The notes under the pieces: model-generated
Seen by the model: the letters and a program-made list of their open reading frames with translations, nothing else
The model's database searches: none
What the model was told of the DNA's origin: nothing
Part shown: positions 11,455 to 51,200 of the stretch, in pieces
Position numbering within the stretch: position 1 is the stretch's first letter
Layout of the letters: every line of letters begins with the position of its first letter
Source of the DNA: a virus
Lineage: Duplodnaviria; Heunggongvirae; Uroviricota; Caudoviricetes
IMG/VR virus record: IMGVR_UViG_2681813421_000002
Span: 22,586-86,585 of that record
Direction: 5' to 3' (one strand)
Length of the DNA stretch: 64,000 bases
Program-made: the position numbers and the translations under genes

Positions 11455-11700
11455 GCAGCCTCCTTTTGCTAATTTAAGGAGCTACCGCGTGAGGTTCCAA
11501 TCTCAATGGCGGTAGCACTGACTGGGTTGGAACTACCGGCGCAAAAGGGAACCGGCCTGCCTTTCGGCAGCCCAGCCAGCACTACCATTGATCTCTGAGC
11601 TAAACGCTACGTATGGCTGTGCGATGGCATGACACAAGAAAAGACGCTTTCGGCGTCTGTGTCGCCTTTTGCATTATCCGGGGTTCCAATCCCGGCACCC
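11455..11700 (-). ncRNA. c4: c4-like antisense RNA region (immI-type) with repeated target elements
   Basis: Two hairpins whose loops carry GGTTCCAATC (plus-strand reading, near 11490-11520 and 11678-11695) and an intervening complementary element GGTTGGAACTACC; layout matches P1 c4 with a1/b1 and a2/b2 sites ahead of icd. Confidence 0.4.
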
Positions 11701-11763
11701 GTTTTTCTAAGGTGCCGTAGAAATATACCCCACGATAATGCCAGGGCGCAACAGTCAGTATTT

Positions 11764-36881: not shown

Positions 36882-37144
36882 CCTCTCACTCCATTATTTA
36901 ACGAATAAAAAAGCTGCGGTGCCGGGTACCTCCCGGTGTCCTTTGGCTGGTTATCCACCGTGGACGGGGAAACAAGGAGAAATGAATGGACTGATATAAC
37001 CATTTCCCCGCGTGCGCTTAGCCGCATTCACCGCAATGGTAAGAGCACTTGGCTGGCTGGGCGGCGATGACGCCTGTACGCATTTGGTGATCCGGTTCTG
37101 CTTCCGGCATTCGCTTAATTAGCCAAATACTCTTAACGTTGCAC

Positions 37145-37231
37145 TGGCGGAGAGTAATGGAATCGAACCATCATCGCTTGCGCAATGGGACGGTTTTCAA
37201 GACCGCTTGAGCACCATGCTCCCTACTCTCC
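37145..37231 (-). tRNA. Type II tRNA with long variable arm, anticodon UGA (Ser-like)
   Basis: 87 nt; acceptor GGAGAGT/ACTCTCC, anticodon stem GCGGT/ACCGT with loop CUUGAAA, T-arm GATGG-TTCGATT-CCATT, G73 and CCA. Confidence 0.5.
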
Positions 37232-37365
37232 CGTTATTGTGGCGACCGGTGCTGATCTCCGGCTTGCGGTTATTTCAGACTCTCACGGGCGTTTAATTGC
37301 CCCGCCGAACAGCTCTTTTCCGCAATAGCTGCAATGTCTTTCGCGCATCAGCCTGCGCATTCACC

Positions 37366-37457
37366 ACAATGTTGAGAACACTGGTTGTCACGCTGCAACG
37401 CAACATTTATTCATAGATTGGGATATGACCCCGTTACGCCAGTGTTCTCAACGTTGT
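37366..37457. repeat. 19-bp inverted repeat (18/19 match) separated by 54 bp
   Basis: ACAATGTTGAGAACACTGG ... CCAGTGTTCTCAACGTTGT in the tRNA-cluster intergenic region. Confidence 0.55.
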
Positions 37458-37603
37458 AGTGCCGGTTACGGTTCCGGCCAGGCCTCTTCCTCAACGGGGT
37501 GTTCTCCATACGGACTACCGTTTATTGGTCGTTCCTGCGGTTTATGTTGTGAAGCCAGATGCTTATCTTCTGGTTGCTTCAAAGAGCTGCACTTCATCAC
37601 AAC

Positions 37604-37677
37604 GGTAAGGGTACTTCGTAGGGATTCGAACCCTCTGCCAAGCACGGCGATCTCCGACGTCGCAAAATACCCTTACC
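37604..37677 (-). other. tRNA-like element with T-arm motif but non-canonical secondary structure
   Basis: Contains AGGGTTCGAATCCCT and a 10-bp terminal pairing (GGTAAGGGTA/TACCCTTACC) but I could not fit a standard cloverleaf; directly abuts tRNA-Thr. Confidence 0.25.
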
Positions 37678-37685
37678 TGTTGTGT

Positions 37686-37761
37686 TGGTGCCGGTTAACG
37701 GACTCGAACCGCTGACATCCTGCTTACAAGGCAGGCGCTCTACCAACTGAGCTAAACCGGC
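37686..37761 (-). tRNA. tRNA-Thr (anticodon UGU)
   Basis: 76 nt; GCCGGTT acceptor, GCTCAGTTGGTAGAGC D-arm, loop CUUGUAA, T-arm GGTTCGAGTCC, CCA. Confidence 0.8.
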
Positions 37762-37763
37762 AT

Positions 37764-37840
37764 TGGCGATGGTGGGTGGATTCGAACCACCGACCGACAG
37801 CTTAGAAGGCTGCTGCTCTATCCTACTGAGCTACACCATC
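37764..37840 (-). tRNA. tRNA-Arg (anticodon UCU)
   Basis: 77 nt; loop CUUCUAA, T-arm GGTGGTTCGAATCCACC, CCA end. Confidence 0.75.
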
Positions 37841-38300
37841 ACTTGCCGGGTACGTCTCCGGCGAGGGCTTCCACCTCCGTATGCTTTTCGGCGCACCGCG
37901 CCCTGGCTGCAATTCGGTAACAGGGGATGCACAACCCTGGCTTCCAGCGTGATTAGCGCCTTCAGCATGACGGGATATACCCGTAGTAGGATGTTATCCC
38001 AGAAAGCCATTAATCAATGGCTGTTACGCGGGAGGGACGTAACAGGTAAGGGCGCTGACCAGAAAGACCTGACCCTTCTCATTCATCTGGTTAATCACAC
38101 CAGCACCCTTGCCTGTTATGCCTCCCCGTTCCCTAATACACAGACGGGGACACTCTGCGGTCGATTTTTTGACGGGGGACGACTCATACCCCGTGGCGTC
38201 AGGCTTCTTAGGCCGCTACCATCATCAGATCATCGTTTGCATTTACTTTAATGGTCGGGTTCTAAACCGCCGCAAAGTCGCTAACCATGACGAAAACCCT

Positions 38301-38324
38301 AAAAAAGCCCACCCGAAGATGGGC
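38301..38324 (-). terminator. Rho-independent terminator (minus strand)
   Basis: GCCCA-loop-TGGGC followed on minus strand by TTTTTT. Confidence 0.45.
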
Positions 38325-38344
38325 AAATACGCTACATCTCACAC

Positions 38345-38422
38345 AAGAAAGAAGCCGACTGCCTGAGCTGGATTCACTTTCAAATGCCCGCTGAAAGGGA
38401 TCACAAGTCGGCTTCTTTCTTG
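38345..38422. repeat. Perfect 17-bp inverted repeat with 45-nt spacer
   Basis: CAAGAAAGAAGCCGACT ... AGTCGGCTTCTTTCTTG. Confidence 0.55.
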
Positions 38423-50929: not shown

Positions 50930-51200
50930 TAACAACCTGCGCCCCGCTGCTAAACGGGTGGCAGGACGTGACGGGGTTAGCAGACTGGCACGAATGAAAC
51001 CAGCAGGCCGAAGCCTCCCCATCACGCCCCACCATAATTCGGGCGTAACGTGGTTTTACGGACACAAAAAACCGCAATATCGGATATCTGCGGTTGTCCG
51101 CATTCGTATTCAGGCTGCTAAACCCGGTCGCAGAATTTGCTACGACGACATGAATATAAGCCTGAAAACATGGAAGATCAACTAAAAATTTCAGCAATGG
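50930..51200 (-). ncRNA. Second c4-like antisense RNA region with a different target motif
   Basis: Repeated GCTGCTAAAC elements (near 50935 and 51113) and a partly complementary GGTTAGCAG element between them. Confidence 0.35.

What the first reader, a model, noticed from the sequence alone, without database searches (positions are those of the whole stretch)
37604..37677. tRNA-like element that does not fold as a canonical cloverleaf
The segment has a near-perfect T-arm motif (AGGGTTCGAATCCCT) and a 10-bp pairing between its ends, and it directly abuts tRNA-Thr. However, I could not place D and anticodon arms at canonical distances. It may be a degenerate tRNA (P1 carries an Asn tRNA next to Thr), a tRNA-like processing signal, or a non-standard tRNA.
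Basis: seen in the sequence. Interest (0 to 1): 0.45.

Follow-up and report, generated by a model that had tools for sequence, protein, structure and literature searches.

The report
tRNA mimic lacking an anticodon arm
Next to the tRNA genes of this P1-like phage lies a conserved, unannotated 74-base RNA hairpin that is built like a tRNA with its anticodon arm removed, so it cannot decode; it is one of many interchangeable RNA cassettes that enterobacterial phages carry in the same constant stem, and its function has not been tested.

Summary
On the minus strand, 37604-37677 holds a unique, perfect T arm. Its ends pair over 15 bp, or 21 bp with an outer extension, and it starts 8 nt after tRNA-Thr.

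It is not a tRNA: ARAGORN and the Rfam tRNA model both reject it. It has a canonical D arm and T arm, but only a 5-9 nt variable linker where the anticodon arm should be. Grafting a 17-nt anticodon arm into that linker, with no other change, makes ARAGORN call a tRNA.

It is not a decaying pseudogene. The same interior occurs in P1 (inside the annotated 'plp' ORF), D6, SJ46, 488 plasmids, a Uetakevirus and lambdoid prophage contigs that have no tRNAs nearby. In 22 variants, 13 of 21 closing-stem pairs show compensatory changes, and the G·U pairs fit only this strand. A longer relative (swi2 type) has compensatory changes in the D and T stems and the same loops.

The closing stem is a reusable scaffold. 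More than 120 phage contigs carry it with at least 50 unrelated interiors, and P7 has a different interior at this position.

Best reading: a non-decoding tRNA 'top-half' mimic made from a polycistronic tRNA/sRNA array. Its mechanism (decoy or processing signal) is inferred, and expression is untested.

The parts
37604..37677 (-). 74-nt tRNA-like cassette core: closing helix, D arm, short linker, T arm. RNA: GGUAAGGGUAUUUUG CGACGUCGGAGAUCGCC GUGCUUGGCA GAGGGUUCGAAUCCCUA CGAAGUACCCUUACC
   Evidence: Covariance model R1 scores 109 bits, E 1e-26, on the minus strand against 22.7 bits on the plus strand. Fold z = -4.1. Sequence read.
37663..37677 (-). 5' strand of the 15-bp closing helix (element nt 1-15); it pairs with 37604-37618
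   Evidence: In 22 variants, 13 of the 21 pairs of the full helix change on both sides. 91% of cells are paired, against 32-55% when the partner is slid.
37604..37618 (-). 3' strand of the closing helix (element nt 60-74)
   Evidence: U11.G64 is a U.G wobble in 20 of 22 variants.
37678..37684 (-). Outer extension of the helix, 5' side: CACAAC (37684-37679) plus bulged A (37678). It starts 2 nt after the CCA of tRNA-Thr.
   Evidence: It pairs with GUUGUG at 37598-37603. In L115 and L009 it is replaced by CCCAC/GUGGG, which still pairs.
37598..37603 (-). Outer extension, 3' side: GUUGUG. It can alternatively pair with CUUCACAAC at 37546-37554 to close the next hairpin.
37647..37663 (-). D-arm-like hairpin: GCGA / CGUCGGAGA / UCGC. 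It matches tRNA G10, Y11:R24, G18 G19 and A21.
   Evidence: Invariant in the 74-nt type except for two loop sites. The stem becomes CUGG/CUAG in the swi2 type, with 3 of 4 pairs changed on both sides. ARAGORN uses it as the D arm in the graft test.
37636..37646 (-). Linker standing in place of the anticodon arm plus variable loop. C32, then a variable 5-9 nt stretch (here GUGCUU, 37640-37645), then conserved GG-Y-A.
   Evidence: Linker sequence and length vary among the variants (5, 6, 7 or 9 nt) while the flanks do not. Replacing nt 33-37 with a 17-nt anticodon arm yields an ARAGORN tRNA call.
37619..37635 (-). T arm: G.A, then A-U G-C G-C G-C stem and loop UUCGAAU. It matches tRNA G53, T54, Psi55, C56, R57, A58 and C61.
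   Evidence: Unique in the window, with 0 expected by chance. Invariant in the 74-nt type. The stem covaries with the swi2 type (AGGG/CCCU against GCGG/CCGC) while the loop is kept.
37686..37761 (-). tRNA-Thr(tgt), with encoded CCA, immediately 5' of the cassette (context)
   Evidence: ARAGORN; Rfam tRNA model 74.9 bits.
37764..37840 (-). tRNA-Arg(tct), in the slot held by tRNA-Asn(gtt) in P1, P7 and D6 (context)
37546..37603 (-). Next hairpin of the array, closed by GUUGUGAUGAAG / CUUCACAAC. This stretch is identical in P1, P7, D6 and the window.
38037..38121 (-). Sibling cassette with the same scaffold stem (GGCAAGGGUGCUGG.../...CCAGCGCCCUUACC) and an unrelated interior, upstream of the tRNAs
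   Evidence: Model R1 matches through the stem only, 16.8 bits. The same cassette occurs in P1 and 57 other loci.
37030..37145 (-). Sibling cassette directly 3' of tRNA-Ser(tga), with scaffold GUUAAGAGUAUUUGG.../...CCAAGUGCUCUUACC. A partial STnc100-like domain follows it.
   Evidence: R1 scores 17.2 bits. STnc100 scores 35.1 bits at 36915-37035, below the gathering score of 47.

Best explanation
The element is a structured RNA cassette encoded on the minus strand. It presents the 'top half' of a tRNA, a T arm and a D arm able to form the tRNA elbow, on a 15-21 bp closing stem. It has no anticodon arm, so it cannot decode. It is transcribed with the phage tRNAs and sRNA-like domains as part of the long untranslated array of the ban operon. 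In lambdoid relatives the equivalent array is the late-operon leader. The closing stem is a generic scaffold shared by many cassettes with other interiors; it most likely insulates the fold and serves as the site where the cassette is cut out and stabilised. The conserved tRNA elbow is the functional payload. Most likely it acts in trans as a non-decoding tRNA mimic that occupies a factor recognising tRNA shape: tRNA-processing or modification enzymes, or a tRNA-targeting defence nuclease. Shown here: the sequence anatomy, the strand, the RNA-level selection, the modularity and the distribution. Inferred: transcription and excision, formation of the elbow in vivo, and the trans-acting decoy role, which on its own I put at about 0.25-0.3.
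For: Anatomy. The T arm carries every universal T-arm nucleotide. The D arm has G10, Y11:R24, G18G19 and A21. Only a 5-9 nt variable linker separates them. ARAGORN calls a 74-base tRNA once a 17-nt anticodon arm replaces linker nt 33-37, with nothing else changed; the native sequence is never called.

RNA-level selection on this strand. 13 of 21 closing-helix pairs show compensatory changes, one pair shows five pair types, and 91% of cells are paired against 32-55% in slid controls. The G.U pairs would be A.C on the other strand. D and T stems covary between the 74-nt and swi2-type relatives while the loops nGnCGGAGA and UUCGAnU stay constant.

Autonomy. The same interior lies in P1-like phage-plasmids next to tRNA-Thr. 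It also lies in Enterobacter phage BUCT554 (Uetakevirus) and in lambdoid-type contigs with no tRNA within several kb. It always has the orientation of the surrounding transcription unit: a downstream holin gene, or a promoter-like site and a terminator.

Cassette logic. The scaffold recurs three times in the window and five times in one Escherichia contig. More than 120 IMG/VR contigs carry the scaffold, with 87 unique interiors in at least 50 clusters. T-loop hairpins are present in 31 of 134 unique cassettes against 0.04 expected after shuffling, although part of that sample was collected with T-arm patterns.

Context. The neighbouring phage tRNAs, Thr(UGU) here and Asn(GUU) in P1, are of the kinds shown to rescue from the Toprim tRNases PARIS AriB and P2 OLD. 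OLD acts by cutting off the anticodon arm (PMC12409363, PMC12445682). The authors of the AriB study themselves raise the possibility that viral tRNAs act as competing inhibitors.
Against: There is no expression, processing or modification evidence for this element; all of that is inferred from context.

The interior stems never vary within the 74-nt type. That is partly by ascertainment, because the search patterns were anchored on the D or T arm. Support for the D and T stems therefore rests on one comparison between two lineages.

Thermodynamic folding does not prefer the T hairpin. The MFE (-31.6 kcal/mol) pairs the D loop with the T loop. The best fold with the T hairpin enforced is -30.5, and the explicit cloverleaf-like folds score -24.5 to -25.9.

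The decoy idea has no direct support. The specificity determinants described for AriB and OLD lie in the anticodon stem, which the element lacks.

The element has no free NCCA end unless it is processed. A terminator-like hairpin lies upstream in the operon at 38307-38324, so transcription into the array needs read-through or an internal promoter, and the scan predicted no promoter.
Confidence: 0.45

Rival explanations
1. The element is a cis-acting punctuation and stability element. The tRNA-like fold recruits RNase P, and/or the 21-bp stem recruits RNase III, to cut the polycistronic transcript. That releases tRNA-Thr upstream and the sRNA-like domains and tciABC-ban mRNA downstream. The element has no trans function.
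For: It lies exactly between separately functional RNAs in a polycistronic array, 2 nt after the CCA of tRNA-Thr. The T arm stacks directly on the closing helix with one nucleotide between them, as in an RNase P substrate. The stem is about two helical turns long, as in RNase III sites. From my own knowledge: DicF is released from a prophage operon by RNase III and RNase E, and the P1 C4 RNA precursor is an RNase P substrate. tRNA-like punctuation is known from mascRNA; Rfam gives only a weak 14.2-bit resemblance.
Against: P7 and 37 other loci have a non-tRNA-like 55-nt interior at the same place, in the same scaffold and with identical flanks, so the tRNA-like interior is not needed to process the neighbours. 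In lambdoid contigs the upstream neighbour is a terminator hairpin, not an RNA that needs release. There is no NCCA after the 7th pair, and the helix continues through the expected RNase P site. Processing alone does not explain the near-invariance of both loops across phage families.
Confidence: 0.25
2. The element is an architectural module of a larger multi-domain leader RNA. The T-loop and the D-like loop would be ordinary tertiary-structure motifs that help a long ncRNA or sRNA precursor (STnc100/Pas type) fold. They would not be a mimic of tRNA aimed at tRNA-binding factors.
For: The cassette is always followed by further conserved structured domains (GUUGUGRUGAAUGCGC...CCACCACAA), and by STnc100 itself in L084. 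BUCT554 appears to make one RNA of about 700 nt, from a promoter-like site to a terminator, that contains it. T-loop hairpins also occur at the 5' side of other cassette interiors, in a non-tRNA order. Related leader regions yield Hfq-bound sRNAs in EPEC (bioRxiv 10.64898/2026.05.13.724894).
Against: The cassette moves independently of its neighbours. The same interior sits beside different downstream domains: two classes in P1-like contigs and others in lambdoid contigs. The match to tRNA covers both arms, their order and their spacing, not only a T-loop.
Confidence: 0.12
3. The element is a decaying tRNA pseudogene: a former tRNA of the array that lost its anticodon arm and has no function.
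For: It lies in a tRNA array whose content varies between relatives (Asn, Thr, Tyr, Arg, Ser, Met/Ile). It has D and T arms.
Against: The interior is conserved at about 99% in 488 plasmids and at 86% overall in an unrelated podovirus. There the differences are concentrated in the stem, as compensatory pairs, and in the linker. It occurs without any tRNA nearby. The acceptor-side helix is the shared cassette scaffold, not a tRNA acceptor stem.
Confidence: 0.05
4. The element is a DNA-level feature: an imperfect palindrome acting as a recombination or insertion site, or a MITE-like repeat, with the interior as passenger sequence.
For: Constant inverted repeats flank hypervariable interiors. Cassettes are gained and lost between relatives, which suggests recombination at the repeated scaffold.
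Against: G.U pairs at many stem positions (for example U.G in 20 of 22 variants at one pair) are tolerated only on the transcribed strand, and orientation relative to transcription is constant. No recombinase is consistently adjacent. Exchange at the DNA level and function at the RNA level are not mutually exclusive.
Confidence: 0.06
5. The region is protein-coding on the plus strand (P1 'plp', annotated as a putative lipoprotein), and the RNA features are incidental.
For: P1 annotation places plp (125 aa) over this sequence. The window has a 96-aa plus-strand ORF at 37425-37715.
Against: There is no Pfam match. The ORF runs antisense into tRNA-Thr and has a TTG start in P1. It is not annotated in D6, P7 or RefSeq E. 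coli records. Linker length differences of 1-2 nt and the 19-nt shorter P7 interior break any frame. The substitutions are compensatory stem changes, not codon-wise changes.
Confidence: 0.02

Closest known systems
Canonical bacterial/phage tRNA (Rfam RF00005)
   Same: The T arm has all universal nucleotides, and the D arm has G18G19. The order is closing helix, D, (middle), T, closing helix, and the T stem abuts the closing helix.
   Different: There is no anticodon arm; a 5-9 nt variable linker takes its place. There is no 8-9 spacer. The acceptor-side helix is 15-21 bp and continuous, with no free 5' end or NCCA. ARAGORN and the Rfam model both reject it.
Bacterial Y RNAs with tRNA-like domains (YrlA, RF02553; D. 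radiodurans Yrn1)
   Same: These are non-decoding RNAs in which a long closing stem carries D-like and T arms. Yrn1 has the same order of arms relative to the 5' end. YrlA occurs in some phages and is modified by TruB and DusA (PMC4201824).
   Different: YrlA is circularly permuted (T, acceptor-like hairpin, D). It carries a Ro60/Rsr-binding helix motif (GNCGAAN0-1G) and is encoded next to rsr. Here the only YrlA-model hit is a sub-threshold 24-bit match across the two real tRNAs, not the element. The ACGAAG in the P1 type is not conserved in other variants.
tRNA-like domain of tmRNA
   Same: It has a T arm and a D-loop analogue without an anticodon arm.
   Different: tmRNA has a free acceptor end with G3.U70 alanine identity and CCA, an mRNA-like ORF and pseudoknots. 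ARAGORN finds no tmRNA here. The conserved wobble here is U.G in the reverse orientation.
tRNA-like processing elements (mascRNA/menRNA type; RNase P/RNase Z punctuation)
   Same: These are small cloverleaf-like modules with a reduced anticodon arm, embedded in a longer transcript.
   Different: They are eukaryotic. The Rfam score here is 14.2 bits against a gathering score of 42.5. They have a 7-bp acceptor stem with single-stranded flanks, whereas this helix continues.
Prophage leader sRNAs STnc100 / PasD / DicF
   Same: They share the genomic niche: the untranslated leader before the lysis genes, or the P1 ban leader. STnc100 lies immediately 3' of the element in L084, and a partial STnc100-like domain lies 3' of a sibling cassette in the window.
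   Different: Those are Hfq-type, terminator-ended base-pairing sRNAs. None of their models covers the element.
Products of P2 OLD cleavage (tRNA with the anticodon arm amputated)
   Same: The shape is the same: a tRNA body without an anticodon stem-loop. There is also an association with tRNA-Thr(UGU) (PMC12445682).
   Different: That is a two-piece degradation product of a host tRNA. This is a genetically encoded single chain closed by a linker and extended by a long stem. Any functional link is speculation.

Membership tests
tRNA (RF00005) | Score at or above the family's gathering threshold (29 bits), or a call by a tRNA finder | tested here: not met
   No tRNA-model match on 37604-37677 even at E <= 10. 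Not called by ARAGORN at default settings or when given alone.
tRNA (RF00005) | Anticodon stem (5 bp) with a 7-nt loop | tested here: not met
   Only 5-9 variable nucleotides lie between position 26 and the GG of the variable-loop region. Grafting an anticodon arm restores a tRNA call.
tRNA (RF00005) | 7-bp acceptor stem with free ends and a 3' NCCA (encoded or added) | tested here: not met
   The helix is 15 bp and continues for 6 more after a bulge. The residues after the 7th pair are CCCU in the P1 type and CUCU in others.
tRNA (RF00005) | T arm with G53 T54 Psi55 C56 R57 A58 C61 | tested here: met
   GGG UUCGAAU CCC at 37621-37633 (-). The modifications themselves are not testable here.
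tRNA (RF00005) | D arm with a 3-4 bp stem and G18 G19 | tested here: met
   GCGA CGUCGGAGA UCGC. The stem covaries with the swi2-type relative.
tRNA pseudogene | Neutral decay: substitutions not constrained by structure; confined to a tRNA array | tested here: not met
   Compensatory stem changes with invariant loops. Present in loci without tRNAs.
YrlA / Y RNA (RF02553) | Covariance-model match; arm order T, acceptor-like hairpin, D | tested here: not met
   The only YrlA hit (24.4 bits, gathering score 69) spans the junction of tRNA-Arg and tRNA-Thr. The arm order here is D then T (PMC4201824).
YrlA / Y RNA (RF02553) | Encoded next to, and bound by, Ro60/Rsr | not tested
   No search for a TROVE-domain gene was made in the window. 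Binding is not testable with these tools.
tmRNA | tRNA-like domain with an alanine-identity acceptor end plus a tag ORF | tested here: not met
   ARAGORN reports no tmRNA. Weak tmRNA-model hits lie elsewhere, at 38156-38313, below threshold.
mascRNA-type tRNA-like processing element (RF01684) | Model match; cleavage by RNase P / RNase Z | tested here: not met
   14.2 bits against a gathering score of 42.5. Cleavage is not testable here.
Scaffolded phage RNA cassettes (family defined here, model R1) | Closing helix GGUAAGRGYAUU.../...AAURCYCUU(U/A)CC flanked by CACAAC-A / GUUGUG, on the transcribed strand of a phage untranslated array | tested here: met
   109 bits on the element. Sibling cassettes lie at 38037-38121 and 37030-37145. 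The scaffold occurs in more than 120 viral contigs.

The most novel reading that the evidence does not exclude
The element is one payload of a previously undescribed, widespread system in temperate enterobacterial phages: P1-like, lambdoid/P22-like, Uetakevirus, and possibly some virulent Klebsiella phages. In this system a constant stem of about 21 bp holds hypervariable structured-RNA cassettes of 38-62 nt inside untranslated tRNA/sRNA arrays. These would be RNA 'morons' exchanged by recombination at the scaffold. The tRNA-like payload would be a genetically encoded 'pre-amputated' tRNA that acts as an uncleavable competitor or product mimic against tRNA-targeting immunity such as OLD, PARIS or Schlafen-type nucleases, complementing the nuclease-resistant tRNAs encoded beside it.
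Probability: 0.15. Interest if true: 0.85.

Novelty: new variant of a known kind. Interest (0 to 1): 0.62.

Why it matters
P1 is a model phage, yet this conserved RNA lies under an ORF ('plp') annotated in 2004. It carries no RNA annotation in any record examined: 488 plasmid records list no feature under it, nor do 622 RefSeq E. coli records, while a few phage records place only plp or hypothetical ORFs there.

If it is made and folds as predicted, it adds a bacterial-virus member to the short list of non-decoding tRNA mimics (tmRNA, YrlA, viral TLS, mascRNA). It would do so in the part of phage genomes now known to carry counter-defence tRNAs.

The scaffold-with-variable-interior organisation suggests a large unexplored pool of phage structured RNAs. 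It also offers a practical handle, the constant stem, for finding them. The questions are directly testable with P1 genetics and standard RNA methods.

Tried and rejected
1. Canonical or unusual tRNA: rejected by ARAGORN and by the Rfam tRNA model at the gathering threshold and at E <= 10.

2. Other Rfam families over the element and its surroundings gave only chance-level hits: plastid UTR fragments matching the T arm, mascRNA 14 bits, ALIL 10 bits, and miRNA models on a nearby long hairpin.

3. YrlA/Y RNA: the topology and the model do not fit.

4. The plus-strand 'plp' ORF has no family match, and its frame is broken by indels in relatives.

5. The genome-contig scan used a pattern that was too loose (CGGAGATCGC...GGTTCRANTCC). 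Most of the 94 loci were unrelated, and model R1 confirmed only one, an Escherichia P1-like contig.

6. A relaxed viral scan (CGGARA...GGTTCRANTCC...GCYCTT) returned mostly real tRNAs of unrelated phages. It added only more swi2-type copies and one hybrid.

7. The P1 genome paper (PMC523184) is not held. One literature search on PARIS returned irrelevant mitochondrial-genome papers. No paper describing this element or the scaffold was found.

8. Thermodynamic folding alone cannot decide the interior fold. The MFE pairs the D loop with the T loop, and the T-hairpin fold is 1.1 kcal/mol higher.

9. I considered RNase P cleavage with an NCCA-like 3' side. 'ACCC' follows the 7th pair in the P1 type only and is not conserved.
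Full report
**What the window is**

The 64-kb window is a P1-like phage-plasmid. It carries two C4 antisense RNA loci. Around the finding it is 95.6% identical to phage D6 and about 91-93% identical to P7 and P1. In annotated relatives this region is the untranslated part of the C1-controlled ban operon. On the window's minus strand the order is: operator/promoter Pban, a 'dicF-like' region, tRNA genes, then tciA-tciB-tciC, another tRNA and ban. All relevant features therefore read on the minus strand.

**Check of the observation**

- The motif AGGGTTCGAATCCCT occurs once in the window, at 37620-37634 (-). None is expected by chance, even with one mismatch allowed.
- The ends of 37604-37677 form an inverted repeat of 13 nt at 92% complementarity.
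- As minus-strand RNA this is a 15-bp helix with two U.G pairs.
- The 74-mer folds at -31.6 kcal/mol (z = -4.1; none of 200 shuffles is as stable). The plus-strand RNA folds less well, at -26.2 (z = -3.1).
- A second inverted repeat, CACAAC/GTTGTG, extends the helix by 6 bp across one bulged A.
- tRNA-Thr(tgt) lies at 37686-37761 (-) and tRNA-Arg(tct) at 37764-37840 (-). The CCA of tRNA-Thr ends 2 nt before the outer helix.
- ARAGORN and the Rfam tRNA model do not call the element, even at E <= 10.

**Anatomy of the minus-strand RNA**

| Element nt | Feature |
|---|---|
| 1-15 and 60-74 | Closing helix |
| 15-31 | GCGA-CGUCGGAGA-UCGC, which matches a tRNA D arm position by position (G10, Y11:R24, R15, G18 G19, A21) |
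| 32-42 | C, then six variable bases, then GGCA |
| 43-59 | G.A plus AGGG-UUCGAAU-CCCU, a T arm with all universal residues |

One nucleotide separates the T stem from the closing helix, as in tRNA. What is missing is the 17-nt anticodon arm, the two-base 8-9 spacer and a free acceptor end.

A direct test makes the point. When a 17-nt anticodon arm (taken from the window's own tRNA-Thr) replaces linker nt 33-37 and nothing else is changed, ARAGORN calls a 74-base tRNA. The native sequence, full-length or trimmed to a 7-bp stem with ACCA added, is never called.

Energy models do not settle the interior. The MFE pairs the D loop (UCGGA) with the T loop (UUCGA), the same contact that forms the tRNA elbow but drawn as a helix. 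The best fold with the T hairpin enforced is only 1.1 kcal/mol higher. RNAalifold reproduces the MFE-type interior.

**Conservation and RNA-level selection**

The element is about 99% identical in P1, D6, SJ46, RCS47 and other P1-like phages, and in 488 PLSDB plasmids of Escherichia, Salmonella, Shigella and Klebsiella. In P1 it lies inside the plus-strand ORF 'plp'.

An 86%-identical copy lies in Enterobacter phage BUCT554, a 40-kb Uetakevirus. There it sits in an untranslated stretch of about 700 nt bounded by a promoter-like site and an intrinsic terminator, with no tRNA in the 5-kb stretch of that phage that was examined.

Pattern scans of IMG/VR recovered further copies in lambdoid-type contigs. 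In these the element lies between a terminator hairpin and the holin/lysis genes, again with no tRNAs nearby.

From 22 distinct variants I counted pairs for an explicit structure:

- In the 21-bp closing helix, 13 pairs change on both sides.
- One pair shows five pair types (UG, AU, GC, CG, GU).
- 91% of cells are paired, against 32-55% when the 3' partner is slid by 1-3 columns.
- None of 500 shuffles reaches the observed covariation score.
- The many G.U pairs, including U11.G64 in 20 of 22 variants, would be A.C mismatches on the other strand. Selection therefore acts on the minus-strand transcript.
- Linker length varies (5, 6, 7 or 9 nt), which also breaks any reading frame.

The D and T arms are invariant within this type. 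Part of that is ascertainment, since two of the three patterns were anchored on them. However, the T-arm-only pattern found just two variable D-loop sites, and the D-arm-only pattern found no T-arm variant.

Independent support comes from a longer relative (92-108 nt) in E. coli phage swi2 and several contigs. It has the same scaffold, a two-base spacer, D stem CUGG/CUAG with loop UGACGGAGA, a longer middle with its own hairpin, then G.A plus GCGG-UUCGACU-CCGC. Klebsiella phages KP591P1 and Magnus carry cassettes of similar length with the same scaffold and a T arm next to the 3' strand of the closing stem, but different middles; I could not place their D arms with confidence. Aligning the arms of the two types gives compensatory changes in 3 of 4 D-stem pairs and 2 of 4 paired T-stem positions, with conserved loops. 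This amounts to two lineages, so it is suggestive rather than statistical.

**The stem is a scaffold**

P7 keeps the closing helix, with compensatory changes, at the same position after tRNA-Thr. It encloses a different 55-nt interior without a T arm, and the 130 nt that follow are identical in all four phages.

A regular-expression survey of the fetched loci showed several such hairpins in P1 itself and in the window. Model R1, built from the 22 variants, finds sibling cassettes in the window at 38037-38121 and 37030-37145 (-). It finds five cassettes within 1.2 kb of one Escherichia contig.

Over all loci held, that scaffold encloses 87 unique interiors in at least 50 unrelated clusters.

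T-loop hairpins (a stem of at least 4 bp closed by G-C, with loop UUCRANN) are present in 31 of 134 unique cassettes, against 0.04 expected after shuffling the interiors. They come in at least eight distinct kinds. They lie either next to the 3' strand of the closing stem (the tRNA order) or next to its 5' strand. Part of this sample was collected with T-arm patterns, so the fraction is inflated, though the diversity is not.

The window's array is homologous to lambdoid late-operon leaders. It runs from a terminator-ended DicF-like RNA (terminator at 38307-38324) through conserved leader sequence, cassettes, tRNAs and STnc100-like domains. [quoted passage not shown] Hfq-bound sRNAs (PasA/C/D, STnc100) map next to holin genes in prophages (bioRxiv 10.64898/2026.05.13.724894). 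Neither paper describes this element or the scaffold, and RefSeq annotates nothing under it in 622 E. coli records.

**Interpretation**

Shown here: a strand-specific, structurally selected RNA cassette whose interior is a tRNA minus its anticodon arm. It is autonomous of tRNA genes, conserved across three phage groups, and is one of many alternative payloads of a constant stem.

Inferred:

- It is transcribed with the array.
- The long stem insulates the fold and is the site of excision. It is about two helical turns, RNase III-like. From my own knowledge, DicF is processed from a prophage operon by RNase III and RNase E.
- The elbow formed by the D and T loops is the working surface.

I favour a trans-acting, non-decoding tRNA mimic for two reasons. 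The interior is under much stronger constraint than processing of the neighbours needs, and P7 does without it. High payload diversity at a fixed site is also typical of accessory and counter-defence loci.

The neighbouring phage tRNAs are of the kinds that rescue from Toprim tRNases. AriB cleaves Lys(UUU), Thr(UGU) and Asn(GUU). P2 OLD cuts off the anticodon arm of tRNA-Thr(UGU), and phage tRNA-Thr rescues. An encoded tRNA body without the cleavable arm could compete for such enzymes or mimic their product. The known specificity determinants lie in the anticodon stem, so this step is speculative, at about 0.15-0.3.

The main rival is a cis-acting punctuation and stability element read by RNase P and/or RNase III. 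Others are an architectural module of a longer leader RNA, a pseudogene, a DNA-level repeat, and the plp ORF. The evidence for and against each is given in the rival list.

**Comparison with known families**

The element fails the membership tests for tRNA (model score, anticodon arm, acceptor end) while meeting the T-arm and D-arm features.

- It is not YrlA. The arm order is permuted relative to YrlA, there is no model hit and no conserved Rsr motif. It does share its overall plan, a long closing stem carrying D then T, with D. radiodurans Yrn1 as described in PMC4201824.
- It is not tmRNA.
- It does not reach the mascRNA model.

It works like the known non-decoding tRNA mimics but belongs to none of them, and it is absent from Rfam 15. 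I therefore rate it a new variant of a known kind. The scaffold-and-payload organisation is a possibly new feature that deserves its own study.

**Limits**

- There are no expression data.
- The E-values of R1 are rough.
- The interior stems are supported by one inter-lineage comparison.
- The literature search covers only the held library.

Noticed in passing
window 38037-38121 (-), 37030-37145 (-); L002 (P1), L173, and more than 120 IMG/VR loci (L212-L326): A constant stem of about 21 bp (CACAAC-A-GGTAAGRGYATT... / ...AATRCYCTT(T/A)CC-GTTGTG) encloses hypervariable interiors of 38-62 nt. There are 87 unique interiors in at least 50 unrelated clusters, and several cassettes occur per phage leader. 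The family is not in Rfam and is not described in any paper found.
   Followed up: partly
window 37764-37840 (-) compared with L001/L002/L003 tRNA-Asn: The window's tRNA-Arg(tct) and the tRNA-Asn(gtt) of P1, D6 and P7 occupy the same slot. They share acceptor stem, D stem and flanks, but differ in the anticodon arm and part of the T stem. This looks like an anticodon-arm swap within one tRNA body.
   Followed up: no
window 37425-37715 (+); L002 1575-2144 (+): The P1 genes 'upl' and 'plp' (annotated as unknown function and putative lipoprotein) lie antisense to structured-RNA cassettes and to tRNA-Thr. They have no significant Pfam match (upl only 13 bits, below the 27-bit cut-off) and are not annotated in D6 or P7. 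They are probably not genes.
   Followed up: partly
window 37145-37231 (-): The tRNA-Ser(tga) has a long variable arm. Its best Rfam match is the tRNA-Sec model, at 43.5 bits, below the gathering score of 47. The D6 record notes that tRNAscan-SE did not call the amino acid.
   Followed up: no
window 38307-38324 (-) and about 38160-38420 (-): An intrinsic-terminator hairpin (GCCCATCTTCGGGTGGGC followed by a T run) ends the 'dicF-like' part of the ban leader, upstream of the tRNAs. The following 150 nt are homologous to lambdoid late-operon leaders. The tRNA/cassette array therefore lies behind a terminator, as in PR'-tR' systems, which raises the question of read-through or antitermination in P1.
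   Followed up: partly
window 36915-37035 (-); L084 4677-4888 (-): STnc100 (RF02076) lies immediately 3' of the tRNA-like cassette in L084, at 109.7 bits. A partial STnc100-like domain (35 bits, below threshold), ending in a terminator-like T run, lies 3' of a sibling cassette in the window. Cassette and STnc100/PasD-like domain seem to form a repeated two-part unit.
   Followed up: partly
window 37353-37472 (both strands): A long, nearly perfect hairpin of about 100 nt (GTTGAGAACACTGG...CCAGTGTTCTCAAC) draws weak miRNA-precursor model hits. It is another cassette with a different stem sequence. Its interior contains ACGGGGTCATATCCCAATC, related to the T-loop-like interior of a P1 cassette.
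   Followed up: no
window 11505-11715 (-) and 50954-51159 (-): There are two separate C4 antisense RNA loci. One has an adjacent isrK-like RNA and the other a c4-a1b1 target motif, which suggests two immI-type immunity regions in one P1-like genome.
   Followed up: no
L007 (Enterobacter phage BUCT554) 2217-2935 (+): An untranslated unit of about 700 nt has a promoter-like TTGACA site and a strong terminator. It contains the tRNA-like cassette, a GTGAATGCGC...CCACCACAA domain and a weak DicF-like match (22 bits, E 0.02). An annotated 'hypothetical protein' lies on the opposite strand.
   Followed up: partly
element nt 11:64 and 43:59 (window 37667/37614 and 37635/37619): A U.G wobble is conserved in 20 of 22 variants. 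It falls at the position that would be 3:70 if the seven pairs next to the T arm were an acceptor stem. A conserved G.A mismatch closes the T stem and is also present in the swi2-type relative. Neither is explained.
   Followed up: no
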